Positions 893 through 36,327 of a stretch of DNA of 64,000 nt are shown one piece after another. Where the stretch lies: NCBI GenBank assembly GCA_963668175.1, contig OY764159.1, positions 2,144,001 to 2,208,000 on the forward strand. Direction: 5' to 3'. Origin of the DNA: Syntrophales bacterium. Its GTDB lineage: Bacteria; Desulfobacterota; Syntrophia; Syntrophales; PHBD01. The translations under genes and the position numbers were made by a program. Within the stretch, counting starts at the first letter, position 1. Each line of letters starts with the position of its first letter. The notes beneath the pieces are model-generated. The model did not search any database and was not told where the DNA came from. It saw nothing but the letters and a program-made list of their open reading frames with translations.

Positions 893-986
893 TATCGGCG
901 GGCCGACCAGCGCCGCGACGCGGCTGGGGGCGAAGCGGTCGCAACGGAAAGCAATGCCTGGGAAAGCGTCCCTGACAAGGGGACGG

Positions 987-1060: not shown

Positions 1061-1113
1061 CGGTATCCTCAGAATTTCGTCAAAATTCCGACAACGGAGG
1101 TTAAAAGGTCAAT

Positions 1114-2593: not shown

Positions 2594-3700
2594 ATGGCTT
2601 CGCATTACAATGATCCGGGAATCAAATACGGACACTCAAGGGAAAAAGGGGCTGTCGACGCCGATGTCGCGGAGAAAGTCAAACAGAAAATCGTCACCCA
2701 GGCCAGAGCCGCGCAGCGTCAGGGCGTCCCCATCACGCAAGACGATATCGCCAGGTTAGTGGCCTATGCTGATCTGGAATCAGGGTTCAATCCCGACGCG
2801 GCCAATAAGGACGAATCCCCATCCGGTGTGTTTCAAATTGCGGATGAGACCGCTAAAGACTTCTATAGTCGATTAAACGGTAAATCTTTGATCAACGGTT
2901 ACCAAGTTAAGGGCAATTACGAAGACTACAAGCGATTCGATCCCGATTCGAACATCGCCGTAGGTATCGGTGTCTACCTCGACAAGAAAAGGAAGGCGAA
3001 GTCCGACGATGTCAATAAAATATATAAACGTTGGAATCCAGGAGCCACACCGGCGGAGCAAAAGGCGCTACGGAAACTGTATGAAAAATACAAAAGCATG
3101 AAACTTTCCCTCGATGATTCCGGGAGCGACGCCGACAAAGTCGCCGAGGCGGCGGAGCGGGATTCCGGGCGGACAGCCCCGGCCGGGCAACCGGACGATA
3201 CGTATTCAACCGAAGACAGGAAGAGAAAAGACCTCGCTGCGGGAGACGACGCCGAAGCTGAGACGGCGCGAAGAGGCGACGATTCGGGCGAACGAGAGGC
3301 CGACGATTCCACGAACAATCAGGACGGCGCTTTCAAGGCTGCCGCGAACGGTTCCTCCCTCGGCATACCCGAAGCGCCATGGCGGCACGCGCTGGATGTG
3401 CTGGGCGTGAAGTTCGGCGATGTGCAATTAACCCCGGCGGAGGCGGACGAAGAGAACGAGACACCGGACTCTTTCGACATCAGAGATAACGACACAACGG
3501 AAAAAATCGGCTCTTATGCGGGAACACCCACCGGCTGCGAAATGACCGTGGGCGACAGGAAGGTCGTGATGGACCGGATAAGCGGCAACGACATTCATCT
3601 GCAAACATATGCGAAAAACGACGATGGAGATTTTGAACTCGTTGGGACGACAAGAATCGGCGACAACGACGGGGTCACGGTAAGAAGGACGTTTGTATAA
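2594..3700 (+). CDS. Lytic transglycosylase (SLT-like) domain + acidic linker + conserved C-terminal domain (putative effector 2)
   Basis: GGAGG RBS. LESGFNPDAAN (catalytic Glu), SGVFQI and FDPDSNIAVG motifs. No signal peptide. Shared C-terminal domain at 3377-3700. Confidence 0.85.
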   Translation: MASHYNDPGIKYGHSREKGAVDADVAEKVKQKIVTQARAAQRQGVPITQDDIARLVAYADLESGFNPDAANKDESPSGVFQIADETAKDFYSRLNGKSLINGYQVKGNYEDYKRFDPDSNIAVGIGVYLDKKRKAKSDDVNKIYKRWNPGATPAEQKALRKLYEKYKSMKLSLDDSGSDADKVAEAAERDSGRTAPAGQPDDTYSTEDRKRKDLAAGDDAEAETARRGDDSGEREADDSTNNQDGAFKAAANGSSLGIPEAPWRHALDVLGVKFGDVQLTPAEADEENETPDSFDIRDNDTTEKIGSYAGTPTGCEMTVGDRKVVMDRISGNDIHLQTYAKNDDGDFELVGTTRIGDNDGVTVRRTFV

Positions 3701-4007: not shown

Positions 4008-4608
4008 TAACGCGTAAGCTGCTTTATTTGTCTAGTGTTGCGGGTAATCGGAAGCCTTTGAAAGCTCTTTGACCTTCCATAAGAAGTACAATTCATCTTG
4101 ACTGATCGTCTCTTTCTTGTCGCTCTTCGCCATGGTTTCTTCAATGACTTCCGCACCTATTTTAGTCGCTCCAAATGCAGCAGCGCCTGCCAGCGGCGTT
4201 GTAAAGATTCCAGTTAGAAAACCAACAGATATAGCACCCGTCCATCCTGCAATTTTGCGCACAACTCCCTTAAAAAGGGATTTATCAGCTTTGCTAATTT
4301 TAGCGCTCAGAGATGCTAAGCGTGGTTGAAGAATGTCCGCATAAACTGCTTGAGCATCTCTCTCTGTAAATGAGTCACCCGCTATCTTGTATTCTTCTAT
4401 CGCTTTGGTCAATGCTGCTCTGAACAAAATGAATGCTTCTTGTTCGCTATTTCGAAGTTTTATAAGGCTTTGTGCGTCAACAGATTCAACGAAAGGAAGA
4501 AGGCAGGTAAGATATTTTTGCATAAGCATTGTATGCCGCCTAGCTATCGGATCACCCGTTAAGTTCTTTATGAAATTAATTTCGAGATCACTATCAGTGG
4601 AGTTGCCC

Positions 4609-5457
4609 CTATTTCACCGGACACTGTTCTAACTTATTTTGATGTCTCCTATACTCCCTGGGCGACATCATTTTCAATCCCTTGTGCGGATGGTTTTCAT
4701 TGTAGTCTACGAACCATCCGGGCAGTTGCTTCATGACCGTTTCGGCATCAGTCAGGATATTCAGATGAACATAATCCCTCTTGAAGGTCTTGACAAAGGA
4801 TTCGGCCATGCCGTTCGATTCCGGGCTGTAGAACGGGGTCGTGCAAACCTCAAGCCCCATCATCTGCCCAAAGCTTTTCGTTTCCCTGGCGGTGTACGCA
4901 GGACCATTATCGCTCAGCCACTGGATTCTGTGAGGCAGCCGATTGATCATACCGAAACGGGCCTCAATGGCTTCCGCCATCAAGTCCCTGACCATGTCGC
5001 CGGATACGCCCCCTGTCGTGGCTACATAACTCATGATTTCCCTGTCGCAACAATCCATGCTGAACGCTACCCGGAGACGGTCCCCATTCCAGCAGGCAAT
5101 CTCAAACGCATCGGAACACCAACGAAGATCGCTCCGTCTCGTCGTGACCTTACCCTCGTGAAGCCTTGCCGGCCTACCCGTATGCCGCTGAAGAAGCAGA
5201 TTGTGCATCTTCATGAGACGATAAATCCGTTTGGGGTTAACTCCCGGATGCCCCTGACGTTCCAGAAACCTGTTGATTCTTGCCGTTACTCTCCGATAGC
5301 CGTAACTGGGACGATTATCAATAACCTGCCTGATCAGAAGAAGATATCTGCCATCGTCGCCTCTCCTGTAATGGCGGCTTCTCGAATCGGCTTCCTTCCC
5401 TTGCCTTTCGTACTGCCGGGAACGGGAAACGTCCAGCGTATCGACAACCGTCTTCAT
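4609..5457 (-). CDS. IS3-family transposase OrfB (DDE/rve core), probably fused to OrfA by -1 frameshift
   Basis: YGYRRV, WCSD, WLSDNG and SPESNGMAESFVKTFKRDY motifs. The -1 frame is open from the A8 run to the ATG. Confidence 0.93.
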   Translation of the reverse strand: MKTVVDTLDVSRSRQYERQGKEADSRSRHYRRGDDGRYLLLIRQVIDNRPSYGYRRVTARINRFLERQGHPGVNPKRIYRLMKMHNLLLQRHTGRPARLHEGKVTTRRSDLRWCSDAFEIACWNGDRLRVAFSMDCCDREIMSYVATTGGVSGDMVRDLMAEAIEARFGMINRLPHRIQWLSDNGPAYTARETKSFGQMMGLEVCTTPFYSPESNGMAESFVKTFKRDYVHLNILTDAETVMKQLPGWFVDYNENHPHKGLKMMSPREYRRHQNKLEQCPVK

Positions 5458-5831
5458 CGGGAATCGTCCTCCGGCAACAACGGCAACCGCGAGATCAGTT
5501 TTTTTTCACGGGCAATCCGGACAGCCTCTCTTAATATCTCCACCTCCATTGTCTTTTTGCCCAGAAGACGCTCCAACTCCCGGATCTGCTTCTTCAGTTC
5601 TCTGGCTTCCGATGCAGGAACGACGCCTTCATCTGCACCAACCGCCGACAGAGCCCCTTCTTCGGCAAGCCTGCGCCAGTGGAACAGTTGGTTCGGATGG
5701 ATGTCATACTTCCGGGCTACAGCCGAGATGCTCATTCCCGGCTGCTCCGCCTCCCGCACCGTCGACTTCTTCTCGGCAGCCGACCAGCGACGTCGCCTCT
5801 GTACACCGACGATCACTTCTACAGGAACCAT
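5454..5831 (-). CDS. IS3-family transposase OrfA (HTH)
   Basis: RRRWSAAEKKSTV...SISAVARKYDIHPNQLFHWRR, then leucine-zipper-like ELKKQIRELERLLGKKTMEVEIL. Confidence 0.92.
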   Translation of the reverse strand: MVPVEVIVGVQRRRRWSAAEKKSTVREAEQPGMSISAVARKYDIHPNQLFHWRRLAEEGALSAVGADEGVVPASEARELKKQIRELERLLGKKTMEVEILREAVRIAREKKLISRLPLLPEDDSR

Positions 5832-7186
5832 AAACACCTTCTTTCTGGTTGTAGTAATATCTCTATATCTATTCCTACAACTTATTTCCAGATTCAAAGT
5901 GTCCGGTTCAATTGGGGGCTACTTCAATCAGACAAGAATGATGTCTTCAGCAAATCAGCAACACCTAATTCAAAGGCGATATTGTGAATGAGCGGTGTGA
6001 AGGGTATGTTATGCGCCTTAAGCTTTTTAGCTTGATCTGTGGTTAGCTTAATTATTCCACATTTTTTGACCTGCTCTACAAGCCTTGGAGCTTTACTATA
6101 GATTTCGTCCTGGATAAGATAAGTATGACACCACAAACCATGAGGTAATATTGAATCTGGCCCAGAACTGATTAGTGTCATTTCGTCATTCTTATAAATG
6201 AGTGAGTATGCTACTTCCTTCAAAAACCTTCTACGTAACGCATCTGACAACACGTTATATCTTGGGTTCTTATCCTGCGATAGAGCATCTATACATAGAC
6301 AATGCGGACAAACATTGCCAAAAGAAACCATCTGGACTATGTCAGATTCAATTAAAGGCAGTAATTCACAAAATACAATCAAATCATCCAAGAATTTATA
6401 GCGGAAAAAGGCCTCTAAATTCGCTGGTTTTCTATCAGCATACGCAAGTAAGTCTGTAAAATAATTCTTGATGAAAACCTTATCACTGTATAAAGCGGCA
6501 AACTGTGTCAACTCTCTAATCTTTTCAATTCGGCATGAAGGACTGGAACATGGATATGAACTTCCACCCAAAGATGGCGCTGCGGCGTGAGAGAATATCG
6601 ACGGACTGGCATTTATATTGGTATAATGTGTTATATCGGTGGATTGTTGGCAAACATCAATAATATGGCTTGCCTTCAGTTTGCGAATATACTTTATGAT
6701 TGGTTTGCCATTTCTTATCAACCCGGCATTTTCAAACAAAGCCTTAAGAGGGTGTTCCATATTCTTTTATACCTATAAATTATTATCGTGACAGCCTCGT
6801 ATATGCCCTTTATTTACCAGCTGTTAACGGAACTATGAGGCAGTTTATTGTGTGTGTCAAGAAAAAATGGACGAAATTGCTAGAACTATCATTAGATATT
6901 TCGTCGCTTTAACATATTGAGTCCACGATAATTCCGGTACGCCTACATATTTTCCCCCTTTTCCCTCGGTCAGACACCGGCGGACTTGACGCTGGCGGCT
7001 ATCCGTCAAGCGCAATAAAAGGTCATTCTTCCGCTATACGCCCGAATCGGTAAATAATCATTATATAATACTATATTTATATTGCATTAGGCCGTTTATC
7101 GTTTATAATATCAGTATAATATCCTGACATGGCCGGATGGCGAGGGGGAGTTCGTAACCGTTTGATATTTTTATGCGAGGTGCATC

Positions 7187-7896: not shown

Positions 7897-9093
7897 ATGC
7901 CGAAAGAAACAAATTACAATATCTTAATCGATAAAACGCCTGGCCGTTCTGCCGGGAACAGTCGAAAAGCAGGGGCTGCTCCATACGAAGTGAAGGTGAA
8001 AGCCGTGGAAGCGATCAGGAAGTATGCAGGTCTTTATGGATTCAATGAACATCAGACCAGCGAAGTCTTGAAAATCGTGGAACACGAATCTGGATTTAAT
8101 CCAGATGCTGCGAATCCAGACACAACTGCGTCCGGACTAGGACAGATGATGAATGACACGTTTGAGCAGTATGGGCCGCGTGGTGCGAATATTTTCGATC
8201 TGGATGCCAACGCAGAGGCAACAGTCAGATACTATCAACATTGCCTGAACAAAGCCGCAGAGAAAGGACTGACCGGAGAGAAGTTGGATACAGGTGCGTA
8301 TGCGTGTTATCATGACGGCCCGTGGAATTTTAAAGCCGGTAAGGATAAAAAAGGTGCGGATATTTATAAAAAGGTCATTAAAAAATTATCCGGTAAGCCC
8401 AAGGTTAGCAGTAACGAACGCTCCTCCAGCAACTCCGACAAGGTAGCCGAGGCGACGGAACGGGATTCCGAGCGGACAGCCGCGGCTGAGCAGCCGGACG
8501 ATGCTTATTCAACCGAAGACAGGAAGAGAAAAGACCTCGCGGGAGACGACGCCGAATCTGAAACGGCGTGGAGAGGCGGAAATTCAGATCGTCGAAGCAT
8601 ACCTAATTCATGGATAGCGGATGCCGGTAACGTGCTTTCAGATGTGTCCGGAAATGCTCTTCAAAGCGCCCTCCGCGAGGCAAGAAAGCCAACGGATGTC
8701 GAATCGGCCGCGAACACGATGACGCTTCGTGAGGCGCCGACCGATTTGCTTGCCGAACCGGGTTCTCCATTGCAGCACGTAATGGATGCGCTGGGGGTGT
8801 CGTCCGGCGATGTGCATTTAACCCCTGCGGAAGCGGACGATGAGAACGAGACACCGGACTCCTTCGATATTGTGGATAAGGGCACATCCGAAAAGATAGG
8901 CTCTTGTTTGACGACACCCGGCGGCTGCGAGATGACCGCAGGCGACCGGAAGGTCGTGATGGACCGGATAAGCGGTAATGACATTCACCTGCAAACGTAT
9001 GCCAAAAACGACGATGGAGATTTTGAGCTCGTTGGCACAACGCGAATCGGCGACAACGACGGGGTAACGGCAAGAAGGCCGTTTGCGGGTTAG
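7897..9093 (+). CDS. Lytic transglycosylase (SLT-like) domain + linker + conserved C-terminal domain (putative effector 3)
   Basis: HESGFNPDAAN, SGLGQM and AYACYHDGP SLT motifs. No signal peptide. Linker shared with 2594..3700. Shared C-terminal domain at 8767-9093. Confidence 0.87.
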   Translation: MPKETNYNILIDKTPGRSAGNSRKAGAAPYEVKVKAVEAIRKYAGLYGFNEHQTSEVLKIVEHESGFNPDAANPDTTASGLGQMMNDTFEQYGPRGANIFDLDANAEATVRYYQHCLNKAAEKGLTGEKLDTGAYACYHDGPWNFKAGKDKKGADIYKKVIKKLSGKPKVSSNERSSSNSDKVAEATERDSERTAAAEQPDDAYSTEDRKRKDLAGDDAESETAWRGGNSDRRSIPNSWIADAGNVLSDVSGNALQSALREARKPTDVESAANTMTLREAPTDLLAEPGSPLQHVMDALGVSSGDVHLTPAEADDENETPDSFDIVDKGTSEKIGSCLTTPGGCEMTAGDRKVVMDRISGNDIHLQTYAKNDDGDFELVGTTRIGDNDGVTARRPFAG

Positions 9094-10325: not shown

Positions 10326-11237
10326 TTATTTATGAAATAATTCAAATCTCCGCAAATGAAGATTGAGACTTCTCGCAAATCCATCGAGACCTGGAAACAA
10401 GGTCGACGGATTGACATTCATTTCATGAAGGTCATATAACGCTTCTTTATGAATATCTCTTGATATGACTATTTTCAATATCGCAACATCTCGGAAATCA
10501 AACTCTTCTAATCGGGCCGTCTCAATTTGCGTCGCATCGGCGCTTGATAATTCATCAAAAGTTATCTCAAATGCAGCGCATAGATTCTTTTCGAAGGACG
10601 ACTGTCTATTGCATGGGAATAAAAAAATACCCTGTTGCATCCAGAGACGAGTATGTTGGAGGAAAGGGTCGATTAACAAGACAGAGTTTTCACTCTCTTC
10701 TTTTGAATTCAGGCATTCGTTTGCCCTGTCTTTGTGCGCTTTGACTATTTCTCTGTATGGATGAGAGTATGGCGACATGCCGCCAATTTCTACCGAATCT
10801 ATAAGCATGTTTATGTTAATGGCCCAAACGGCCGAATCGTCCGTTGAATTTTCCATAGCAAAGAACGCTGCTATAAAGAAGGAATCCGTAAAATCCAAGA
10901 GCCTCGTACTCCCGCCGTAGTGCTGCAAGAAAGATAGCCATTCGATGCTGTTATTTAATTCCGGAAGTTTATGCTCGAAGAGATGAGCTCGACGTTGAAA
11001 TTCGCTAAGCATATACAATTCTGTATTTTGATAGTGGTATTTAGTGCATTGGTATTGCTCGGCGTCTCTCTCGAATCTCGTTGATAAAGGCCACTCTTTA
11101 TCTCCCTGGCCACGAAATGCCCAAATAGGAGCCCCGGCTTTCATGCACGAGAGAAGCTTTCCTCGGTCATTCCAGGAGTCAATTGCTATTTCACAAAATT
11201 TATGTGAATCCGTCTTCAAATGATTTCCCTTAGCCAA
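10326..11237 (-). CDS. FRG domain-containing protein
   Basis: WAFRGQ, LQHYGGSTRLLDFT and RLWMQQGIF motifs, ending in STLFPGLDGFAR. AT-rich. Confidence 0.9.
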   Translation of the reverse strand: MAKGNHLKTDSHKFCEIAIDSWNDRGKLLSCMKAGAPIWAFRGQGDKEWPLSTRFERDAEQYQCTKYHYQNTELYMLSEFQRRAHLFEHKLPELNNSIEWLSFLQHYGGSTRLLDFTDSFFIAAFFAMENSTDDSAVWAININMLIDSVEIGGMSPYSHPYREIVKAHKDRANECLNSKEESENSVLLIDPFLQHTRLWMQQGIFLFPCNRQSSFEKNLCAAFEITFDELSSADATQIETARLEEFDFRDVAILKIVISRDIHKEALYDLHEMNVNPSTLFPGLDGFARSLNLHLRRFELFHK

Positions 11238-22614: not shown

Positions 22615-22660
22615 GAATCAGAGACTTTCATATGACAGGCCGCGCCCCCCGCATGGGGGG

Positions 22661-22839
22661 TGTTGAAAAACGCCCATCTGTTACTTGCCCCCTTCAGGGG
22701 GGGCTTTTGCGCGTCCCCTAAAGGGGATAAATCACCTAAAGGTGACAAGCCTTGCATCTGGACATTTTTGAACCCCCTGAAGGGGGCGAGCAACCTGCGT
22801 TCCCCCTGCATAGGGGGTTCAAAAGCGAGTTTTTCAACA
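22661..22839. mobile_element. MITE/REP-like non-autonomous element with nested short palindromes
   Basis: Perfect 11-bp terminal IR TGTTGAAAAAC / GTTTTTCAACA. No credible ORF. Five internal 12-16-bp palindromes. Confidence 0.65.
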
Positions 22840-22880
22840 AGCTGTTAAATCCCGATAGCTCCGGCGGCGCCCCCCGCCTG

Positions 22881-23789
22881 TCAGGGGACGACGCGGTCCA
22901 TGTGCTTGCGCACCTTCTCCATGTCCGCCCGGTACTTGCAGATGACGTTCAGCGTCTCCGAAACGACCTCAGGCGTCAGCTCCGCGATTTGCAGGGCCAG
23001 GAGCGACTGCGCCCAGTCCAGCGTTTCCGAGATGCTGGGGCTCTTCTTGAGATCGAGGCCGCGGATTTTGCGGATGGCGGAAACCAGCGCGGCGCAAAGC
23101 TTTGCCTCGATGCCGGGGATCTTCAGGCGGACGATGGCGATCTCCGTATCCTCGGCGGGGTAGTCGATGTAGAGGTGGACGCAGCGGCGCTTGAGGGCGT
23201 CGCTCATGTCTCGGTAGTTGTTGGACGTAAGGAGCACGAAGGGGATCTTCACGGCCTTGCGGGTGCCCAGCTCCGGGATGGACACCTGGAAGTCGCTTAA
23301 AAGCTCAAGAAGGAAGGCCTCGAACTCCGGGTCGGACTTGTCGACTTCGTCCAGAAGCAGCACCACCGGCTCCTTCGAGCTGATCGCCTGCAGGAGCGGG
23401 CGCGGCTGGATGAAGCGGTCGGAGAAGAAGGCGTCCTCCTGGGCGCCGATCTGGTCCACCGCCTCCGTCAGGGTCGCCGTGGGGGCGATGATGTCGTTGA
23501 TGCGGTCTTTCACCATCTGCGTGTAGAGGAGCTGCTTCGCGTACTCCCATTCGTAGAGGGCCTTGGCCTCGTCCAGCCCCTCGTAGCACTGGAGGCGGAT
23601 CAGCTCGCGGCCGAGGCTCCGGGCGACGGCCTTGGCCAGTTCCGTCTTGCCGACGCCCGCCGGCCCTTCGATCAGGACGGGCTTCTGCGTCGCCTGCGCC
23701 AGGAAGACGACCGTCGCGATCTCCCGCGACGGAATATAGCCCGCCTCCGCGAGCCTCTTCTCCACATCGTCGACACTCCGGTAATCCAT
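22881..23789 (-). CDS. MoxR-family AAA+ ATPase (CoxD-like)
   Basis: Walker A GPAGVGKT, IRLQCYEG, Walker B LLLDEVDK, and LTSN...SDALKRRC. Confidence 0.93.
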   Translation of the reverse strand: MDYRSVDDVEKRLAEAGYIPSREIATVVFLAQATQKPVLIEGPAGVGKTELAKAVARSLGRELIRLQCYEGLDEAKALYEWEYAKQLLYTQMVKDRINDIIAPTATLTEAVDQIGAQEDAFFSDRFIQPRPLLQAISSKEPVVLLLDEVDKSDPEFEAFLLELLSDFQVSIPELGTRKAVKIPFVLLTSNNYRDMSDALKRRCVHLYIDYPAEDTEIAIVRLKIPGIEAKLCAALVSAIRKIRGLDLKKSPSISETLDWAQSLLALQIAELTPEVVSETLNVICKYRADMEKVRKHMDRVVP

Positions 23790-24156
23790 GAATAACGTCG
23801 TCCTTTCCTTGCGATACATATCCGGCGGCACGTGCCCGGGTACAGGGCGCAAGACCGCGCCGTCGCCTGCCGCCTGAGGATACCACCGGGGCCGCCGGAT
23901 GCCCAGCAAAATCTATCTCTTGGAAAAACGGGGGGTTAACGGGGCGGACAGATGCCAATCCGGAGAAAGTGCGGGCCTCGGAGGGATATCAAAAAAACGG
24001 ACGGAAAGCGGGCGGAAACGGAAAGACGAGACCGGTTGGCGAATCATGGGCGTCGGGATAATTCCGGGGACACCACACTTAATTATTATAATAAAATAAA
24101 GTGAACCGTCGCCGTTGCCGCCCGGCCGGAAACACCCTTCCCCGGAACCCTTTCCC

Positions 24157-24837
24157 CTAACGCACGGGCTGGTTTTCAGGGCGTATCCATTGGGGGAGGA
24201 TGGATTTCTCGATCCTGACCTTCTGCAATGCGGGGTATTCGGAAAGGTACAGCTTCATATCCTCCTCGAATCTATCTTCGGCAACAACATCGTAAGTCCC
24301 CGTGGAAGCGCCGACCACCGCCTGATCGATCAGCGGTACGACTTTTCCCGCTCTTTCTTCGCTGTCGCTTTTCCTTTCCCGCAGCACGACGTCAAGATGT
24401 CCCAGGTAGATCACGGCGTTCGGTTTGATCTCCAGTTTATAATTCAGCGGAACGGAGCCGCCGCCGGTAATCGGGAAATGATCGTATGCCGCGCCGATGC
24501 TGTGAAAGGTGTACGCGCCTCCCGCAAGCTCAAAACTCAGCAGGTATTCGTTGAAGCTGTTCTCCACGCTTTTTATCCGGTAAGGAATGTCGGCCCTGTA
24601 GAAGCTGCTCCTCGACCCGTGGTCGCATCGCTCCGATTGCGGGCAGATAAGCGCGCCCATGATATCCAGCTGGTAGCCCGGCTTGTGCTGGTTCGCAATC
24701 TTGACCGAAAGCAGGGCCAGCGATTTTTTGGAGACGTCAATGTCCGTCTGGCCCTTGGTGAGCGCCATGTTGCCGCCCGCGCAACCCGCCATGACGAAGA
24801 CGGAACACAAGACGATAAGAAACCTTCGACTGATCAT
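24157..24837 (-). CDS. Hypothetical lipoprotein (repeat-flanked cassette)
   Basis: GGAGG RBS. MISRRFLIVLCSVFVMAGC lipobox. Confidence 0.82.
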   Translation of the reverse strand: MISRRFLIVLCSVFVMAGCAGGNMALTKGQTDIDVSKKSLALLSVKIANQHKPGYQLDIMGALICPQSERCDHGSRSSFYRADIPYRIKSVENSFNEYLLSFELAGGAYTFHSIGAAYDHFPITGGGSVPLNYKLEIKPNAVIYLGHLDVVLRERKSDSEERAGKVVPLIDQAVVGASTGTYDVVAEDRFEEDMKLYLSEYPALQKVRIEKSILPQWIRPENQPVR

Positions 24838-25007
24838 AACCCCTCCCGGCCAACGCCTCATCCATGATATCGGGGAATTCGTGAATTCGGGGGGCACCAC
24901 ACTCATTTAACAAAATTCCCCTGCCTGGCGGTTAATAATTAAGTATGACGTCCCCGGAATTACGACTGCCTGGCGGTTTATAATTAAGTATGGTGTCCCT
25001 GAATTGA

Positions 25008-25491
25008 CGATCTGGTCCACCGCCTCCGTCAGGGTCGCGGTGGGGGCGATGATGTCGTTGATGCGGTCCTTCACCATCTGCGTGTAGAGGAGCTGCTTGG
25101 CGTACTCCCATTCGTAGAGGGCCTTGGCCTCGTCCAGCCCCTCGTAGCACTGGAGGCGGATCAGCTCGCGGCCGAGGCTCCGGGCGACGGCCTTGGCCAG
25201 CTCCGTCTTGCCGACGCCCGCCGGCCCCTCGATCAGGACGGGCTTCTGCGTCGCCTGCGCCAGGAAGACGACCGTCGCAATCTCCCGCGAGGGGATGTAG
25301 CCCGCCTCCGTCAGCCTCTTCTCCACATCGTCGACACTCCGGTAATCCATGAATAACGTCGTCCTTTCCCTGCGATACATATCCGGCGGCACAAGCCCGG
25401 TTACAGGGCGCACAACCGCGCCGCCGCCTGCCGCCTGAGGATACCACCGGGGCCGCCGGATGCCCAGCAAAATATATCATTGGGAAAAACG
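25008..25491 (-). pseudogene. Partial duplicate of the moxR 5' end and upstream region (copy of 23447-23930), bounded by repeats
   Basis: Colinear 484-bp copy without indels. The reading frame runs into the repeat after ...EAVDQI. Confidence 0.93.
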
Positions 25492-25603
25492 TCTGAATTT
25501 GGGGGACACCACGCTCATTTATCAGAATTCCCCTGCATGGCGGTTTATAATTAAGTATGGTGTCCCCCGAATTACGTTTGCGCCTGATTGCTGTGCGGCG
25601 ATA

Positions 25604-26134
25604 TTAGTAACGGCGCCGACGTATATTAACGCAGAGCCAGCAATTATTTTGATGTTGTACCAACTCAATCTTGAAATGGGGACTTCTTCGGATGCCGAAT
25701 CTATAAGGATAGAATTTGAATTCACGTGCCATTTGGGGAAAACGAAGTTTTAGACCGTCGACATACCGAGTGACACTTGGCTTATCAAGCCACGGACCAG
25801 TTTGTGGGTGTGGATCTTTGTATACGATGACTTGCCCTTTGGAGTCTCTGTAAATCGCAGTGGCACTATCTGGAAGAGATGCTGGAAATACGTCGTAAGG
25901 GCCACAAATTCTGTGGTGGGTAGTTGATGCCCTGAAATATGGTGCATCCTCAAAGAATACCTTTGTGCCATCTTCATAAGCAGTGAAACCTTCGCCTGAT
26001 TTTGTAAGCAATGGAAGGTGCTTTTCTGTCAGTCCAAAAAGTTGTTCTTTATCGCATTCCTCCCAAAACCATGTGCGCCAGTAATCATGACCATTCCTAC
26101 TGACAACGGAGGCTTCATATGACCAAGGCATCAT
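25604..26134 (-). CDS. Hypothetical protein (AT-rich, repeat-flanked cassette)
   Basis: AAGGAG RBS. The ORF fills the interval between two repeats. Confidence 0.7.
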   Translation of the reverse strand: MMPWSYEASVVSRNGHDYWRTWFWEECDKEQLFGLTEKHLPLLTKSGEGFTAYEDGTKVFFEDAPYFRASTTHHRICGPYDVFPASLPDSATAIYRDSKGQVIVYKDPHPQTGPWLDKPSVTRYVDGLKLRFPQMAREFKFYPYRFGIRRSPHFKIELVQHQNNCWLCVNIRRRRY

Positions 26135-26305
26135 CAATCTCCTTTTCTGGAAAGTTCAAGCACTTTCCAATTAATATTACAAACAAATGGTGCAAATGAC
26201 GGAATTCGGGAATTCGGGGAACATCCATATTCATTTGTCTGAATTCCCCTGCCTGGCGGTTAATAATTAAGTATGACGTCCCCGGAATTGTGCTGTGGTT
26301 GGGAT

Positions 26306-26857
26306 TTAATAAAATCTTTTGTTCATAGCTTTCTTATAAACGTTCTCTAGATCAAACGTTACAGGATCTCTCTCCCCATCATCTGTTGAATTATCAATTA
26401 AATTGAACGCTATACCACCATTTTCAATTTCACCCAAAAAGCACAATTCTTTTTTTGAGGCTCTTCTGGCTAAGGCAAACTCTCCATGATCGCCTAAATA
26501 ATTATCCTTAAAGTCATCATCCCATTCGGGAACTGCTAGAACATAGACTTTATATTTGTTTTGCTGTGGGGATCCTATTATTAAAAGATATTTTTTATTA
26601 GTTTGCCGACTAAATACTTCTATTTTTTTATCATCATGCCATTCATATCCGTCAGGTTTTATTTCTATCCAACAACTGTAATCAGGGAGATAAAAATCAG
26701 GTAAGTACCATGTACCATCAATATCAAATCCTTCAACTTCATATTGATATTCTATTTCGAGTTCATCAAAGAACACCGCCCAGCGCGCTTCTAATCTACT
26801 ACGAAATTTGATGCCGTTATAATTTGTTTCAATAGTTTTTATCATTTTCCATCCCAA
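26306..26857 (-). CDS. Putative PD-(D/E)XK nuclease-like protein (repeat-flanked cassette)
   Basis: FRSRLEARWAVFFD...YLPDFYLP...WIEIKP motif. AT-rich. Confidence 0.8.
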   Translation of the reverse strand: MGWKMIKTIETNYNGIKFRSRLEARWAVFFDELEIEYQYEVEGFDIDGTWYLPDFYLPDYSCWIEIKPDGYEWHDDKKIEVFSRQTNKKYLLIIGSPQQNKYKVYVLAVPEWDDDFKDNYLGDHGEFALARRASKKELCFLGEIENGGIAFNLIDNSTDDGERDPVTFDLENVYKKAMNKRFY

Positions 26858-26932
26858 CGATTAATATACCAACTTGGTTTATGCGATTTCCGGAGGCAAT
26901 ATTACGTCCCTGAATTGTTCGGAATTGGCAAG

Positions 26933-27469
26933 TCATTTTTTAATAATGCATCTTTGTAGATGCTCTTGAACTTCTCTCGGAAATTCATTGGCAGCTATTG
27001 AATCATCAAATAGCCACTTAAAATAAATAACCACTATATATCGTAGATCCCACATTGAAAAAATTGAATTATCAATTTCAATGTAAATTTCTGGTTTATT
27101 ATCGAAATATGATCTCCAGTCGCCCACTATAGGCGGGTAGGTTTTCTTCACCGGTGTTTTCTCATAATTTTTTTTTCGTAGAATCATATGCTTACTACCA
27201 TTGGTTAAATCTTTAAAAGCTTTTAACAACACCTGCATTTCAGATGTAGTACGTCCTTTTTTTTGACGAGCTAATCTGGGGCGATTCTGATCTTCGTCAA
27301 TCCAGTCATCATATAAGTGCCATGCAGTCACGAAAAAATTAAAACAATCATAAGGATTGCATTCCTCGCTCAATTTTTTATCTTCATAGAGCAGCTTCAT
27401 CAACATATCGTAACTACTACTTATTCCATAATCAAAATGTGGCGTATTATTTTCTATCAAGTCATTCAT
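26933..27469 (-). CDS. Hypothetical protein, possibly HEPN-like (repeat-flanked cassette)
   Basis: FNFFVTAWHLYDDW and KDLTNGSKH, which resembles the HEPN Rx4-6H pattern. AT-rich. Confidence 0.72.
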   Translation of the reverse strand: MNDLIENNTPHFDYGISSSYDMLMKLLYEDKKLSEECNPYDCFNFFVTAWHLYDDWIDEDQNRPRLARQKKGRTTSEMQVLLKAFKDLTNGSKHMILRKKNYEKTPVKKTYPPIVGDWRSYFDNKPEIYIEIDNSIFSMWDLRYIVVIYFKWLFDDSIAANEFPREVQEHLQRCIIKK

Positions 27470-27636
27470 ATGATTTATAAATTCTATGCCATACAGAATT
27501 CGGGGGACACATACTCATTTATCTGAATTCTCCTGAATGGCGGTTAATCATTAAGTATGGACGTCCCCTGAATTGGCGCACTTTTCAGAATAAACACATC
27601 AGCAATATCATAAACGCAAGGGCTTAAATTCCGCGT

Positions 27637-27909
27637 TTACTTCACGAAGTCTCTTAGTGCCTTACCGGCTTTGAACGTAGGAACTTTCTTGGCCGCAATT
27701 TTAATTGTTTTTCCAGTCTGTGGATTTCTTCCTTCTCTGGCCTTTCGCTTTGCAACAGAGTATGTGCCGAAACCAACAATCGTCACGGCGCTATCTCTTT
27801 TCATTGCGCCTTGAATGGCCTGATGATAACAATCAATGCAGCGGCTGGCCTGGGCTTTCGTAACTCCGGCACAACCAGCCACAAATGAAACGACATCTGC
27901 TTTATTCAT
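27637..27909 (-). CDS. hup: HU-family histone-like DNA-binding protein
   Basis: MNKADVV...VGFGTYSVAKRKAREGRNPQTGKTIKIAAKKVPTFKAGKALRD. Confidence 0.92.
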   Translation of the reverse strand: MNKADVVSFVAGCAGVTKAQASRCIDCYHQAIQGAMKRDSAVTIVGFGTYSVAKRKAREGRNPQTGKTIKIAAKKVPTFKAGKALRDFVK

Positions 27910-28516
27910 TTTTGCCCCTCCCCTTTTCGCTCTGCAACTGGAATTTGAGAGCCGCGATTTCTCTATCCCGCCGATCAATCTCCGCTTTCGATTGTTCAAT
28001 TTGTGATTTCAGCAAATACACTTCTCTTTTCAAATCGTTATTGGAAGGCTTAATATAATTCACATAGGCCCACGCGGACGAAGCGACGACCGCAACAACG
28101 GATACAGTGAACGTAGCCAGCTTCCACGGTTTGGCTTTCTTCGCCTCCAATATGTCAAGCCTTTCTTTCGTTGACAGCACGCCTGTGAGCTCCCAATGAT
28201 GCCTGCATTTCACCGGCATGTTTTCGGGATCTTTTAAATAGCCTCCCAGGCAAGTCCGCTTCACAGCCTTACGTATCAGAGACGTATCGCACTCTTCGCC
28301 GTTGTCGAATTTGGCAATTTCATCTTCTATAATCTTCTGGTCCTCGCGATCCAGAGTTTCTATAGAGTGGTCTTCGACGTACAAGTAGCAATTGTTCAAG
28401 CAATTTGGCAAGAATGGCCTCCTGGTACCTTCAGGAAACTGGTTCAACGCGAACGCGAGAGATAGGAAATGCAGTGAGATGTGAAAAACTTTGAACCGAT
28501 TTATGAGGCTTGTCAA
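27902..28516 (-). CDS. Hypothetical protein with one TM helix and a C-terminal coiled coil (start uncertain)
   Basis: TM LATFTVSVVAVVASSAWAYV. Stop overlaps the HU start. Confidence 0.65.
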   Translation of the reverse strand: MTSLINRFKVFHISLHFLSLAFALNQFPEGTRRPFLPNCLNNCYLYVEDHSIETLDREDQKIIEDEIAKFDNGEECDTSLIRKAVKRTCLGGYLKDPENMPVKCRHHWELTGVLSTKERLDILEAKKAKPWKLATFTVSVVAVVASSAWAYVNYIKPSNNDLKREVYLLKSQIEQSKAEIDRRDREIAALKFQLQSEKGRGKNE

Positions 28517-28844
28517 GATGAAATATCAGTAAAATCAATAAAAAGATATGCAATCAGCCTCTAGTAATCTTGCGGGCGGGGATATGAGGGGAGGAAGAAG
28601 AAAAGAGGTTTTAAGAAACGGACATGGTGAAACATAGATCATTTATTCACGACTATTAATTGGCATCAACAAGATACTCGACGGAGGTGATTAATGACTA
28701 CAGGAAAAATCCTTGATTCGCGATGGGGTTTGCGGCTGCCGTCGGGAATGTCTTATTTCCGGCAAGGGACGCATGGTCCCGCCGGTCTTTCCCTCCCGCC
28801 GGCCGCCGGCCTGGCCCGGCGCGGTCGCCGTTCCCGGCTGCCGT

Positions 28845-30203
28845 TCAGTTCCGCATGCTGGTGACGGGGGCGGGGAGCCTGCCGCCCCGCTTGAGGAAGT
28901 CTTTCGCGGAGTAGGGATTCACCTTCATGATCGGCGCTTCCCCGAGAAGCCCGCCGAAATCGACCGACTCGCCCGCAACCTTCCCCGGGACGGGGATGAT
29001 GCGGACGGCCGTCGTCTTGTTGTTCACGATCCCTATCGCCAGTTCGTCCGCGATAATGGCGTTGATGGTCTCCGCCGGGGTGTCGCCGGGCACGGCGAAC
29101 ATGTCGAGGCCGACGGAACACACGGCGCTCAGCGATTCGAGCTTGTCCAGGCCGAGGGAGCCCCGCCTGACCGCGTCGATCATGTTCCGGTCTTCGCTTA
29201 CGGGGATGAACGTGCCGCTTAAGCCGCCCACGTTCCCGCTCGCCATCGCGCCGCCCTTCTTCACGGCGTCCATCAGGAGGGCGACCGCCAGGGTCGTGCC
29301 GTGCGCCCCCGTCGATTCGATGCCGAAGGCCTCGACGATGCCGGCCACCGAATCCCCGGCGGCGGTCGTCGGCGCGAGGGAGATGTCCACGATCCCGAAG
29401 GGGACGTCCATGTTCCGCGCGAGTTCCCGGCCGACAAGCTCCCCGCTTCTCGTGATCTTGAAGACGGTCCTTTTGATGACCTCGGCAAGCTCCGTCAGGT
29501 CGCACGACCGGTTCTTCTCCACGACGCTCCGGACGACGCCCGGCCCGCTGATGCCGACGTTGAGCGACATGTCCGGCTCGCCCATGCCGTGATACGCGCC
29601 CGCCATGAAGGGGTTGTCCTCCGGGGCGTTCACGAAGACGACGAACTTCGCGCAGCCGACGGCGTCCTTCGTGAGGGAGGCCGTCCGCTTGAGCATCGGG
29701 CCGATGAGGTTCACCGCATCCAGGTTCATTCCCGCCGTGTTCGCGCCCACGTTGAGAAACGAGCACACCCTTTCCGTGGCCGCGAGGACCTCGGGCAGGG
29801 ATTCGATCAGCACTTTTTCGGAACGGGTGATGCCCTTGTGCACCAGCGCGCCGAAGCCGCCGATGAAGTCGATTCCCGCGTCCGCCGCCGCACGGTCAAG
29901 GGCCTTCGCCATGGCCACGTACTTCTCCGCCGTGGCGTGCGTCTCCATGACGATGCTGACAGGGGTGATGGAAACCCTCTTGTTGACGACGGGGATGCCG
30001 TACTTCGCTTCGAGTTTCTTCGCCTCGTCCACGAGCTTCTTCGCGTTCGCGCGGATCTTGCCGTAGACCTTGTCCGTGAAGGCCCCGAAGTCGGAATCGA
30101 TGCAGTCCTTGAGATTGATGCCGAGCGTCGTCGTCCTGATATCGAGGTTCTGATACAGGATCATGCTGGCCGTTTCGAATATTTCTTCGACCGATAGGGC
30201 CAT
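28845..30203 (-). CDS. UPF0210 / DUF711 (PFL-like) family protein
   Basis: LDIRTTTLGINL, GIPVVNKRVSITP, NPFMAGAYHG and CSVGLDM motifs. Paired with an ACT protein. Confidence 0.93.
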   Translation of the reverse strand: MALSVEEIFETASMILYQNLDIRTTTLGINLKDCIDSDFGAFTDKVYGKIRANAKKLVDEAKKLEAKYGIPVVNKRVSITPVSIVMETHATAEKYVAMAKALDRAAADAGIDFIGGFGALVHKGITRSEKVLIESLPEVLAATERVCSFLNVGANTAGMNLDAVNLIGPMLKRTASLTKDAVGCAKFVVFVNAPEDNPFMAGAYHGMGEPDMSLNVGISGPGVVRSVVEKNRSCDLTELAEVIKRTVFKITRSGELVGRELARNMDVPFGIVDISLAPTTAAGDSVAGIVEAFGIESTGAHGTTLAVALLMDAVKKGGAMASGNVGGLSGTFIPVSEDRNMIDAVRRGSLGLDKLESLSAVCSVGLDMFAVPGDTPAETINAIIADELAIGIVNNKTTAVRIIPVPGKVAGESVDFGGLLGEAPIMKVNPYSAKDFLKRGGRLPAPVTSMRN

Positions 30204-34917: not shown

Positions 34918-35952
34918 CTATTTGACGCCGGAGACGCAGCAATCGCTTCTATTGGCCGGGGGCACGGAATTCTTAAGCCAGCAGCGGGCGGAAGGCCCCT
35001 GGACGCCGGGCTTGACGTATGTCCAGGCCCTGCAGTTGCGTTCCTCCGCGCAGGCCGCCATGCATAATTCCGGGTTGGCCCTCTGGAGGTCGAAGTTCCT
35101 GAAGTCCATTCCGGGGCGGTCCGTGTCGAATTCCATATCCGTGCGGGATACCTGTCGATTCTTGACGCCGGAGACGCAGCAATCGCTTCTATTGGCCGGG
35201 GGCACGGAATTCTTAAGCCAGCAGCGGGCGGAAGGCCCCTGGACGCCGGGCTTGACGTATGTCCAGGCCCTGCAGTTGCGTTCCTCCGCGCAGGCCGCCA
35301 TGCATAATTCCGGGTTGGCCCTCTGGAGGTCGAAGTTCCTGAAGTCCATTCCGGGGCGGTCCGTGTCGAATTCCATATCCGTGCGGGACACCTGTCGATT
35401 CTTGACGCCGGAGACGCAGCAATCGCTTCTTGTGGCCGGGGGCACGGAATTCTTAAGCCAGCAGCGGGCGGAAGGCCCCTGGACGCCGGGCTTGACGTAT
35501 GTCCAGGCCTTGCAGTTGCGTTCCTCCGCGCAGGCCGCCATGCACAATTCCGGGTTGGCCCTTTGGAGATCGAAGTTCCTGAAGTCCATTCCGGGGCGGT
35601 CCGTGTCGAATTCCATATCCGTGCGGGATACCTGTCGATTCTTGACGCCGGAGACGCAGCAATCGCTTCTTGTGGCTGAGGGCACGGAATTCTTAAGCCA
35701 GCATCGGGCGGAAGGTCCCTGGACGCCGGGCTTGACGTATGTCCAGGCCTTGCAGTTGCGTTCCTCCGCGCAGGCCGCCATGCACAATTCCGGGTTGGCC
35801 CTTTGGAGATCGAAGTTCCTGAAGTCCATTCCGGGGCGGTCCGTGTCGTACTCCATGTCGCTCGATCTTCTATCGGCTGACGCCCCTGGACAGGATAGGC
35901 TCAACAACAATAAGATCAGAATGACTACCTTGAGCGTAAATATCTTCTTCAT
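34918..35952 (-). CDS. Secreted protein with four tandem PAN/Apple domains
   Basis: Signal peptide. 80-aa unit DTDRPGMDFRNF...CMAAC....C.AWTYVKPG...CWLK...CCVSGVK, four copies. Confidence 0.92.
   Translation of the reverse strand: MKKIFTLKVVILILLLLSLSCPGASADRRSSDMEYDTDRPGMDFRNFDLQRANPELCMAACAEERNCKAWTYVKPGVQGPSARCWLKNSVPSATRSDCCVSGVKNRQVSRTDMEFDTDRPGMDFRNFDLQRANPELCMAACAEERNCKAWTYVKPGVQGPSARCWLKNSVPPATRSDCCVSGVKNRQVSRTDMEFDTDRPGMDFRNFDLQRANPELCMAACAEERNCRAWTYVKPGVQGPSARCWLKNSVPPANRSDCCVSGVKNRQVSRTDMEFDTDRPGMDFRNFDLQRANPELCMAACAEERNCRAWTYVKPGVQGPSARCWLKNSVPPANRSDCCVSGVK
34922..35857. repeat. 240-bp intragenic tandem repeat x4
   Basis: Near-identical blocks with 240-bp period starting at 34922, 35162, 35402 and 35642. 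Confidence 0.95.
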
Positions 35953-36327
35953 CCCTTCCTCCTTTGCTTGTCCGGTTTCGCATTGGCCCGTTGTTTCGCC
36001 CGGTTTTATTAAAGTTTCTCCCAACGGCGTTTGTACCGAATGAAATCGACCCGCCCGCGAATCGTGTACCATATTTGGAGCAAGGATTCTATGTTTACCT
36101 TATGGCGGGCTTATCGATAATCGGCTGAAATGCTTGCGTCTGACTGAAATTGCGGTTCATCGACTATGGGAGGAATACGGGAGAAAGGCCCCTGTTGGCT
36201 TCAGCTACGAATCGTTGAAATACATGACAAAATTGCAGCGTAGATTACAGCTTGAAAGCGCGGGGAAGACAAGCATGCAGAGCCAAAGATGATCCTGCCT
36301 TCTTGTCTTCAAAATTCTAAATGGATA

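What the first reader, a model, noticed from the sequence alone, without database searches (positions are those of the whole stretch)
24060..27574. Integron-like gene-cassette array built on a non-attC 79-bp palindromic repeat
Seen: four full and three partial copies of one repeat, with the full copies in the same orientation. Arms are ~27 bp (22/27 complementary in 25495-25573) around a conserved ~24-nt core, with GAATT termini. Each 0.5-0.8-kb interval holds one minus-strand ORF or ORF fragment with short flanks. The cargo is unrelated and mostly AT-rich. Known: this is the layout of integron cassette arrays, but the repeats lack RYYYAAC/GTTRRRY cores and no intI, cas or transposase is adjacent. 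Inference: an undescribed cassette capture/shuffling system acting in trans on ssDNA hairpins. An HUH/RAYT-like enzyme or a tyrosine recombinase is a candidate.
Basis: partly seen in the sequence, partly recalled or inferred. Interest (0 to 1): 0.9.

Follow-up and report, generated by a model that had tools for sequence, protein, structure and literature searches.

The report
Mini inverted-repeat elements bounding gene-sized segments
A cluster of 81-bp palindromic repeats really does separate single foreign genes upstream of moxR, but the junctions look more like the ends of small non-autonomous transposable elements than like the recombination sites of a new integron-type system.

Summary
The repeats are real. 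There are four full ~81-bp units in one orientation (24882, 25494, 26210, 27494), one core+right-arm half (24966-25007) and one inverted right-type arm (24060-88). The seventh "partial" copy (~26893) is not above chance. No unit lies elsewhere in the 64 kb, and none was found in Rfam, plasmids, phages or GTDB genomes. They are not attC sites: there are no R''/R' cores and no integrase.

Three findings change the reading:
- The outer AATT ends of arms are joined to three unrelated native sequences.
- Segment 24060-25007 is a 948-bp element with inverted terminal arms that carries a lipoprotein gene.
- One "cassette" is a 484-bp copy of the moxR start from a diverged allele (10 synonymous and 1 non-synonymous change). 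It gives a 1561-bp duplication of the form X-[129 bp + element]-X'.

The hairpin is significant in only 2 of 4 units, and no pair covaries.

Best reading (0.45): these are MITE-like units, mobilised in trans, that build an array by circle formation and re-integration, as IS26 translocatable units and TIME composites do. A new site-specific cassette system (~0.2) is not excluded. The enzyme and the genome-wide distribution are unknown.

The parts
23447..23930 (-). X: first 114 codons of the intact moxR gene plus 141 bp upstream. This is the resident copy of the duplicated 484-bp segment.
   Evidence: (family D1). It aligns without gaps to 25008-25491 with 22 mismatches.
23931..24059 (.). 129-bp GC-rich spacer (GC 0.60) between X and the left end of element E. 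Inferred to be native DNA upstream of moxR.
24060..24088 (-). Solo right-type arm, inverted relative to the units. It is the left terminal inverted repeat of element E (24060-25007).
   Evidence: I1-I3: 28-30 nt, 90-93% complementary to the right arms of units 1-3; I7: 95% over 20 nt to 24980-24999. (minus-strand hit, E 3e-5).
24157..24837 (-). Passenger gene of E: a 226-aa lipoprotein-like protein (signal peptide ending in ...AGC, with a GGGAGGGG Shine-Dalgarno sequence upstream). No family was found.
   Evidence: no hit. (nearest Atlas clusters are unnamed hypothetical proteins, score 0.96).
24882..24962 (+). Unit c1 (left arm, 24-nt core, right arm).
24966..25007 (+). Half unit p (core plus right arm). 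It is the right terminal inverted repeat of element E. Its outer end is joined to moxR codon 115.
   Evidence: D3, I7; E 4e-9.
25008..25491 (-). X': a truncated second copy of the moxR start (114 codons plus upstream region) from a diverged allele. It is bounded exactly by the outer end of a right arm and, 2 nt beyond its other end, by the outer end of the left arm of unit c2.
   Evidence: 484 bp, 22 mismatches. (10 synonymous and 1 non-synonymous difference; pS 0.12, pN 0.004; 11 of 141 upstream positions differ).
25494..25574 (+). Unit c2, the best palindrome of the four.
   Evidence: I4; z -3.96.
25604..26134 (-). Cargo ORF A, 176 aa, GC 0.44. It belongs to a small family. The predicted fold is weakly PUA-like (EVE/YTH).
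   Evidence: 58 representatives with E <= 1e-3 among 1.84e9 proteins. (pLDDT 91.5). (best hit 2hd9: E 0.017, probability 0.99, TM 0.38/0.45; no hit at E <= 1e-3).
26210..26290 (+). Unit c3. The right 48 nt are identical to c1, while the left half differs at 9 of 32 positions.
   Evidence: Fisher p 1.2e-4.
26306..26845 (-). Cargo ORF B, 179 aa, GC 0.34. The N-terminal ~90 aa is a phage-type nuclease domain, annotated as Holliday-junction resolvase or endonuclease in phage records.
   Evidence: phrog_21138 at 1.7e-28; phrog_9019 at 6e-13. (7966 of 8000 scored candidates at E <= 1e-3). (34 phage records, N-terminal part only).
26893..26921 (+). Possible decayed right-arm remnant. It is not statistically supported.
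   Evidence: scores within the shuffle range. (no hit).
26933..27469 (-). Cargo ORF C, 178 aa, GC 0.33. It belongs to a rare family with invariant AWH and GSKH motifs. Its function is unknown.
   Evidence: 12 homologues.. (pLDDT 74.5). (no PDB match at E <= 1e-3).
27494..27574 (+). Unit c4, the right end of the array.
   Evidence: z -2.38.

Best explanation
The 81-bp units are non-autonomous mini transposable elements of the MITE type. Each consists of two ~27-32-nt terminal inverted arms abutting a 24-nt core. The right arm plus the adjoining core is the conserved half and the only part that also occurs alone.

The units belong to the same family as a 948-bp passenger-carrying element, E (24060-25007). 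E is bounded by two inverted right-type arms and carries a lipoprotein gene.

An enzyme encoded elsewhere in the genome breaks and joins DNA at the outer AATT ends of the arms. The array grew by end-mediated events rather than by capture at an att site. Intramolecular transposition makes a circle of one unit plus adjacent DNA. The circle re-enters next to, or through, an existing unit or other homology. This leaves co-oriented units that separate segments of arbitrary origin, as described for IS26 translocatable units and for composites of Tn3-derived miniature elements.

A concrete trace of this is the 1561-bp structure X-[129 bp + E]-X'. It is what integration by homologous recombination would give for a circle made when the right end of E attacked moxR codon 115 in a related strain.

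Shown:
- the repeats;
- the inverted solo arm;
- the three end-joints to unrelated DNA;
- the allelic moxR fragment;
- the mixed composition of the segments;
- the mosaic c1/c3 pair.

Inferred:
- the transposition chemistry;
- the circle;
- the trans-acting enzyme and its class.
For: (1) Arm outer ends are joined to three unrelated GC-rich native sequences: 24059|24060, 25007|25008 inside moxR codon 115, and 25491-25494 at 141 bp upstream of the moxR' start. A site-specific system would need a common target.

(2) Element E has terminal inverted arms (95% over 20 nt, I7) with their outer ends facing outward. This fixes the polarity: in the full units the cargo lies outside the arms.

(3) X' is a truncated gene piece, not a captured ORF. 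It differs from X by 10 synonymous and 1 non-synonymous change in 114 codons. It therefore comes from a functional allele of another lineage. The start-to-start spacing of X and X' is 1561 bp, which equals 484 + 129 + 948.

(4) The units are co-oriented and the segments have GC of 0.56, 0.65, 0.44 and 0.34/0.33. This indicates piecewise assembly.

(5) Sequence, not structure, is conserved. Right halves occur alone in 2 clear cases, and left halves never do.

(6) c1 and c3 share 48 identical nt on the right but differ at 9 of 32 positions on the left. This fits recombination between copies.

(7) Precedent comes from passages of PMC13367494. They describe directly oriented miniature elements flanking a gene, proposed to arise by integration of a circle made by intramolecular replicative transposition or by recombination. 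The IS26 translocatable-unit model is in PMC4196232 (search listing and start of abstract only).
Against: - No cognate transposase is in the window. The only one, an IS3-family IS at 4598-5927, has unrelated ends (20 comparisons, one at nominal p 0.03).
- No target-site duplication can be shown. GAATT on both sides cannot be told apart from part of the palindrome. Neither the outer flanks of E nor those of the whole array form a 5-6-bp direct repeat.
- No unit lies in the other 60 kb, and none is in 185,579 GTDB genomes by an exact 18-base core pattern. The 2 hits there are chance matches without arms. Mobility and copy number are therefore unproven.
- All four full units share one orientation and sit between ORFs. 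That fits a cassette system at least as well.
- The circle scenario is one of several rearrangement paths that could give the same duplication.
Confidence: 0.45

Rival explanations
1. This is a new site-specific cassette system, an integron analogue. Each unit is a recombination site with two inverted protein-binding arms around a crossover region. It is recognised by a recombinase encoded elsewhere, and single genes are excised and inserted as circles.
For: - The units are co-oriented and the genes are co-oriented on the minus strand.
- Flanks are short: 16-73 nt between unit and ORF.
- Segments differ in composition.
- The c1/c3 mosaic, with a break near the middle of the unit, is what crossover in the core would give.
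- Two arm positions are mismatched in all four units, which could mark strand or polarity.
- A non-integron precedent exists in rAID-1 arrays, which have a XerD-family recombinase and repetitive intergenic sequences (passages of bioRxiv 10.1101/471110).
Against: - No tyrosine or serine recombinase is encoded among the 155 ORFs of 110 aa or more.
- Arm ends are joined to three unrelated sequences, one of them inside a gene.
- One arm is inverted and solitary, forming a terminal-inverted-repeat element with a half unit.
- One 'cassette' is a truncated allelic gene fragment.
- The 24-nt centre is long for a crossover spacer (recalled from general knowledge of tyrosine-recombinase core sites).
- The one-gene-per-interval pattern rests on only 3-4 intervals, and the c3-c4 interval holds two genes.
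Confidence: 0.2
2. The units are REPIN-like doublets: two inverted REP-type sequences that form a hairpin. They would be spread by a RAYT/IS200-type HUH enzyme acting on single strands. They have colonised the intergenic spaces of a foreign island, and the rearrangements are secondary.
For: - The architecture is two inverted ~27-nt arms with a 24-nt spacer, 81 bp in all.
- There is no demonstrable target duplication.
- All units have one orientation. This would fit strand-biased single-strand insertion (recalled property of IS200/IS605-type elements, not tested).
- GAATT at both the left flank and the right end could act as a re-created target, giving adjacent insertions such as c1 followed by p (inference).
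Against: - The hairpin is significant in only 2 of 4 units, and no pair covaries.
- No further copy lies in the other 60 kb, although REP-type families are usually dispersed.
- No Y1_Tnp domain is found in the window.
- Element E, with arms 900 bp apart around a gene, is not REPIN-like.
Confidence: 0.15
3. The units are regulatory or structural intergenic modules that belong to the foreign AT-rich island. They would resemble the promoter-terminator 'PeSL' cassettes of T4-type phages, and they shuffle genes only by ordinary homologous recombination between copies.
For: - The units lie just upstream of each minus-strand ORF.
- ORF B has a phage-type nuclease domain, and the neighbouring gene is HU-like.
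- The c1/c3 mosaic fits homologous exchange.
- The precedent is PMC2839356 (search listing and start of abstract only).
Against: - No promoter-like or terminator-like site falls in any unit. The scan found 5 promoter-like sites against 7.6 expected and 2 terminator-like sites against 5.7 expected, none of them in a unit.
- Units and halves also flank GC-rich native DNA (the moxR fragment and the lipoprotein segment), with joints exactly at arm ends.
- Blastn found no phage or plasmid match to the unit.
Confidence: 0.1
4. This is an ordinary integron cassette array without an integrase (a CALIN), with divergent attC sites.
For: The layout alone.
Against: - There are 0 R''/R' core pairs on either strand. 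Single core-like heptamers occur in unit c1 only.
- Sequence is conserved rather than structure.
- No intI is present.
Confidence: 0.02

Closest known systems
Composite structures bounded by Tn3-derived miniature elements (TIME-COMPs), and MITE-bounded composites in general
   Same: - Short non-coding elements with terminal inverted repeats flank unrelated genes.
- Directly oriented copies flanking one gene are explained by integration of a circle (element plus gene), made by intramolecular replicative transposition or by recombination (passages of PMC13367494).
- Truncated genes occur inside such composites, for example a truncated blaTEM in the same passages.
   Different: - Known TIMEs are ~200-260 bp and leave 5-6-bp direct repeats (same passages). 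Here the units are 81 bp and no such repeat flanks E or the array.
- The unit has no blastn match in 72,556 plasmids.
- Similarity of the arms to Tn3-family ends was not tested, because no reference sequences were at hand.
IS26 translocatable-unit arrays
   Same: - Arrays of co-oriented copies are interspersed with segments of varied origin.
- There is no per-copy target duplication.
- Growth is by insertion of a circle next to an existing copy (PMC4196232, search listing and start of abstract only).
   Different: - IS26 encodes its own transposase and is 820 bp (recalled).
- The units here are non-coding and would need an enzyme supplied in trans.
Integron cassette arrays (attC sites)
   Same: - Co-oriented palindromic sites 57-141 bp long (recalled range) separate single co-oriented promoterless-looking genes of varied composition.
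- The array stands beside core genes.
   Different: - There are no RYYYAAC/GTTRRRY cores and no IntI.
- Sequence is conserved rather than structure.
- Ends are joined to non-site DNA, and one arm is inverted and solitary.
rAID-1 arrays of Bacteroidales
   Same: [quoted passage not shown]
   Different: - rAID-1 has a conserved XerD-family recombinase at one end and cargo of immunity genes.
- Here there is no recombinase, and no cargo protein matches an immunity family.
REPINs / REP-RAYT systems
   Same: Two inverted short repeats with a spacer, lying between genes, with no coding capacity (architecture recalled; dimensions).
   Different: - The copies are clustered rather than dispersed in this window.
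- There is no RAYT gene.
- The hairpin is weak in half the copies.

Membership tests
Integron attC / CALIN | Terminal R'' (RYYYAAC) and R' (GTTRRRY) core sites, 40-200 nt apart | tested here: not met
   0 pairs on either strand of 23900-27800. A single heptamer of each kind occurs in unit c1 only, about 18 nt from the nearest candidate partner.
Integron attC / CALIN | Conserved folded structure with variable sequence | tested here: not met
   2 of 4 units beat shuffles; 81% of cells paired, 0 of 27 compensatory pairs, and 60 of 83 positions invariant. With only 4 sequences the power is low.
Integron attC / CALIN | Score with the IntegronFinder attC covariance model | not testable with these tools
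   The model is not available. Rfam has no match.
Integron | intI tyrosine recombinase with attI next to the array | tested here: not met
   Pfam search on all 155 ORFs of 110 aa or more: no Phage_integrase family hit.
MITE (generic) | Terminal inverted repeats, small size, no coding capacity | tested here: met
   (27-nt arms, 81-93% complementary within and between units). The units are 81 bp.
MITE (generic) | Target-site duplication flanking each copy | tested here: inconclusive
   GAATT lies on both sides of all four units but is also part of the palindrome. No other direct repeat is consistent across copies.
MITE (generic) | An autonomous element with the same ends, and copies at varied sites | tested here: inconclusive
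   In the window, the ends of the only IS (IS3 family) do not match, and no other copy is present. Three different native joints exist. The rest of the genome is not available.
TIME (Tn3-derived miniature element) | 5-6-bp direct repeats flanking the element or composite (PMC13367494 passages) | tested here: not met
   the flanks of E (GGGAT / ACGAT) and of the whole array do not repeat.
TIME (Tn3-derived miniature element) | Ends related to Tn3-family inverted repeats | not tested
   No reference ends were at hand. Only a recalled resemblance exists (G-run near the tip). Blastn against plasmids found nothing.
REPIN / REP-RAYT | Many dispersed copies and a RAYT (Y1_Tnp) gene flanked by the repeats | tested here: not met
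   Within this window only: no copy outside 24060-27574 and no Y1_Tnp hit.
rAID-1 | XerD-family recombinase at the head of the array, with immunity-gene cargo | tested here: not met
   (no recombinase). (no immunity family).
PeSL regulatory cassettes | Promoter plus terminator stem-loop inside the repeat | tested here: not met
   none of the 5 promoter-like sites or 2 terminator-like sites lies in a unit.

The most novel reading that the evidence does not exclude
The units are the recombination sites of an undescribed gene-cassette platform that is unrelated to integrons. The right half (core plus arm) would be the recombinase-binding module and crossover would occur near the unit centre, which would explain the c1/c3 mosaic. 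A trans-encoded enzyme, possibly helped by the adjacent island-borne HU-like protein, would excise and insert single genes. The joints to native DNA would be rare off-site events.
Probability: 0.2. Interest if true: 0.85.

Novelty: new variant of a known kind. Interest (0 to 1): 0.5.

Why it matters
If the best reading holds, this is an undescribed family of very small non-autonomous elements. It assembles single foreign genes, and even pieces of host genes from other strains, into an integron-like array in an uncultured, probably anaerobic sediment-type bacterium.

It would show that the gene-by-gene arrays seen with IS26 or TIME composites on clinical plasmids also form on environmental chromosomes, with units of only 81 bp that annotation pipelines miss.

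If the rival holds, it would be a second, independent invention of the cassette-platform principle.

Either way, the moxR fragment is a natural marker of inter-strain exchange at this locus.

Tried and rejected
- Rfam: 0 hits at gathering threshold on the whole window, and 0 hits at E <= 1 on 23900-28800.
- Exact-pattern scan of GTDB genomes with an 18-base core pattern: 2 hits. Both lack arms and are chance matches. This used the only genome-contig scan, so no relatives of the locus could be fetched.
- Blastn of unit c2 against plasmids and phages: no match.
- Cognate-enzyme search: the only transposase found was that of the IS3-family IS. It was rejected as the cognate enzyme because its ends do not match the arms.
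- The third partial copy at ~26893 was rejected as unsupported.
- Cargo function:
  - No Pfam, NCBIfam or PADLOC family for the lipoprotein, ORF A or ORF C. PHROGs hit ORF B only.
  - ORF C model: no PDB match.
  - ORF A model: only a weak PUA-like match in PDB, and none among viral models.
  - Atlas: nothing usable for ORF A.
  - ORF B: no PDB sequence relative.
  - The ORF C homologue on a Vibrio plasmid sits in an unrelated context without the repeat.
- A homologue of ORF B that carries an IS200-type domain (P0081) looks like a chimeric ORF (N-terminal 63 aa plus a truncated Y1_Tnp). It was not taken as a link to an HUH enzyme.
- Taxonomy: the neighbours of the DUF711 protein are 96% identical (unnamed) or about 80% identical (Thermodesulfobacteriota, Desulfobacterales, Spirochaetes). 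The lineage is therefore left open.

Full report
**What is there**

The region between moxR (22881-23789, minus strand) and a DUF711/UPF0210 gene (28845-30203, minus strand) holds four full copies of an 81-bp unit. All four have the same orientation: 24882-24962 (c1), 25494-25574 (c2), 26210-26290 (c3) and 27494-27574 (c4).

Each unit has a left arm, a 24-nt core and a right arm. In c2 the arms are 27 nt and 22/27 complementary (I4).

Besides the full units there are two partial copies:
- a half unit (core plus right arm) at 24966-25007;
- a right-type arm in inverted orientation at 24060-24088.

The evidence that these are real and local:
- A profile built from the four copies finds nothing else in the 64-kb window.
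- The core and arm patterns are far above shuffle expectation: 5 and 4 matches against 0.00 expected.
- 60 of 83 unit positions are invariant.

**Surroundings**

The segments between units differ in composition:

| Segment | GC | Content |
|---|---|---|
| 24093-24881 | 0.56 | lipoprotein-like ORF |
| 25008-25491 | 0.65 | piece of moxR |
| 25575-26209 | 0.44 | ORF A |
| 26291-26892 | 0.34 | ORF B |
| 26922-27493 | 0.33 | ORF C |

All ORFs are on the minus strand. To the right, a further low-GC stretch (0.45, up to about 28720) holds an HU-family gene and a 204-aa ORF, with no unit beyond them.

What is known of the cargo:
- ORF B has an N-terminal phage-type nuclease domain (phrog_21138 at 1.7e-28). 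tblastn finds the N-terminal part in 34 phage records.
- ORF A belongs to a family of 58 representatives among 1.84 billion proteins. Its model is confident (pLDDT 91.5) but only weakly PUA-like.
- ORF C has 12 homologues and no structural match.
- The lipoprotein-like protein has no named relatives.

**Not attC**

- No RYYYAAC...GTTRRRY pair exists on either strand.
- Rfam finds nothing.
- Folding as single-stranded DNA beats shuffles for c2 and c4 only.
- On the four-unit alignment, 81% of arm cells pair, but none of the 27 pairs shows a compensatory change. Two pairs are mismatched in all copies.
- With four sequences this has little power. Still, the pattern is conserved sequence with imperfect structure, the reverse of attC.

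**No enzyme nearby**

Pfam was run on all 155 ORFs of 110 aa or more. E-value limits were 0.1, 1e-5, 1e-5 and 1e-4 for the four searches. There is no tyrosine or serine recombinase, no HUH transposase and no cas gene.

My first greedy ORF choice hid one mobile element. It is an IS3-family IS at about 4598-5927: orfA at 5454-5897 (HTH_Tnp_1) and orfB at 4609-5457 (rve). Its inverted ends do not resemble the unit arms. In 20 comparisons, one reached nominal p 0.03.

**The decisive anatomy**

1. *A duplicated moxR piece.* Segment 25008-25491 (X') is a gap-free copy of 23447-23930 (X), with 22 mismatches in 484 bp. X is the first 114 codons of moxR plus 141 bp upstream. In the coding part, 10 differences are synonymous and 1 is not (pS 0.12, pN 0.004). 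Upstream, 11 of 141 positions differ. X' therefore diverged as part of a working gene in another lineage and was truncated later. This 'cassette' is an allelic gene fragment.

2. *Joints at arm ends.* X' is bounded on one side exactly by the outer end of the half unit (25007|25008). Its other end lies 2 nt from the outer end of c2's left arm (25491/25494). The native sequence continues differently after 23930. With the left end at 24059|24060, this makes three joints between arm tips and unrelated GC-rich DNA.

3. *Element E.* The inverted arm at 24060 and the half unit at 25007 face outward. They are 95% complementary over 20 nt (I7). So 24060-25007 is a 948-bp element with terminal inverted repeats. 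It carries the lipoprotein gene, with c1 nested next to its right end. This fixes the polarity of the arms. In the full units the AATT tips are the outer ends, and the genes lie outside the units.

4. *A 1561-bp duplication.* The X-to-X' spacing is 1561 bp, which equals 484 + 129 + 948. The order X-[129 bp + E]-X' is what a single crossover would give between a chromosome (moxR-X-c2...) and a circle made of X, the 129 bp and E. Such a circle is the expected by-product if the right end of E attacked moxR codon 115 on the same molecule. That intramolecular transposition yields deletion circles is general knowledge, and the same idea is proposed for miniature elements in the passages of PMC13367494. 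The 4.5% divergence implies that the circle, or the recipient region, came from a related strain. This scenario is inference, and other rearrangement paths are possible.

5. *A mosaic pair.* c1 and c3 are identical over the right 48 nt but differ at 9 of 32 left positions (Fisher p 1.2e-4). The other five pairs show no such contrast. This indicates exchange between copies. Right halves occur alone twice, and left halves never do.

**Interpretation**

The features listed above are those of transposon ends, not of a dedicated att site. Co-orientation and heterogeneous one- or two-gene segments are also what circle-and-reintegration mechanisms produce. Two precedents apply:
- IS26 translocatable units (PMC4196232, search listing and start of abstract only);
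- composites of Tn3-derived miniature elements (PMC13367494, passages).

I therefore read the units as MITE-type elements mobilised in trans (confidence 0.45).

What weakens this reading:
- There is no cognate enzyme in the window.
- No target duplication can be proved. GAATT flanks every unit but is part of the palindrome, and the outer flanks of E and of the array do not repeat.
- No copy lies elsewhere in the window, in plasmids or phages, or in GTDB representative genomes by an exact core pattern. The two hits there lack arms.

The rivals are:
- a new site-specific cassette system (0.2), with a precedent of kind in rAID-1 (passages of 10.1101/471110);
- REPIN-like elements moved by an HUH enzyme (0.15);
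- PeSL-like intergenic modules (0.1). PMC2839356 was seen as a search listing only, and no promoter-like or terminator-like site lies in any unit;
- a divergent integron array (0.02).

**What stayed unchecked**

- The rest of the genome was not available.
- Loci of relatives could not be fetched, because the one genome scan went to the DNA pattern.
- The host lineage is uncertain. The DUF711 neighbours point loosely to Thermodesulfobacteriota-like anaerobes.

**Verdict**

The 'ssDNA-hairpin cassette capture' part is unsupported and partly contradicted. The repeat family itself appears undescribed. The most likely mechanism is a variant of known MITE/translocatable-unit behaviour.

Noticed in passing
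window 4598-5927 (minus strand): An IS3-family insertion sequence lies in a low-GC patch. orfA (HTH_Tnp_1) is at 5454-5897 and orfB (rve) at 4609-5457, with ~28-nt inverted ends. It was hidden at first by a longer spurious plus-strand ORF (4639-5991).
   Followed up: yes
window 986-1064 and 22640-22880: A family of short C5-N4-6-G5 hairpin motifs. One site is a 19-nt tandem array of 4.2 copies. The other is a cluster of about six such hairpins, plus two longer inverted-repeat pairs (22661-22680/22820-22839 and 22680-22701/22773-22794), in the 266-bp vWA-moxR intergenic space. They look REP-like. The core of unit c2 contains a similar CCCCTGCATGG string.
   Followed up: partly
window 24907-25470 (minus strand): The truncated moxR' copy keeps its start and Walker-A region. 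It reads through the half unit and c1, giving a 187-aa chimeric ORF. It is probably a pseudogene.
   Followed up: partly
window 27637-27909 and 27902-28516 (minus strand): An HU/IHF-family gene (Bac_DNA_binding, 2e-29) and a 204-aa ORF lie in low-GC DNA directly beside unit c4. No unit lies on their far side. They may belong to the same foreign island.
   Followed up: partly
window 10326-11237 (minus strand): An FRG-domain protein matches the candidate defence family PDC-S15 (E 7e-42). It sits in another low-GC patch (9-11 kb).
   Followed up: no
window 34922-35856: A 240-bp tandem repeat (3.9 copies, 97% identical) lies inside a PAN-domain protein gene (34918-36072, minus strand).
   Followed up: no
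reverse strand of the left arms of c1-c4 (e.g. 24906, 25518): An ATG lies in the reverse complement of each left arm, with a purine-rich stretch about 11 nt upstream. It opens short ORFs of 11-40 codons. In c1 the ORF is in frame with the lipoprotein gene, which is why the ORF list shows a 249-aa form. This is probably chance.
   Followed up: partly
protein P0081 (homologue of ORF B): A 208-aa database protein joins the first 63 aa of the ORF-B-type nuclease domain (78% identity) to a truncated IS200-type Y1_Tnp domain. It is probably an insertion-generated chimera.
   Followed up: partly
window 2594-3700 and 7897-9093: Two SLT-domain (lytic transglycosylase) paralogues, each preceded by ORFs with no family match. 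They are separated by the IS3 element and low-GC DNA.
   Followed up: no
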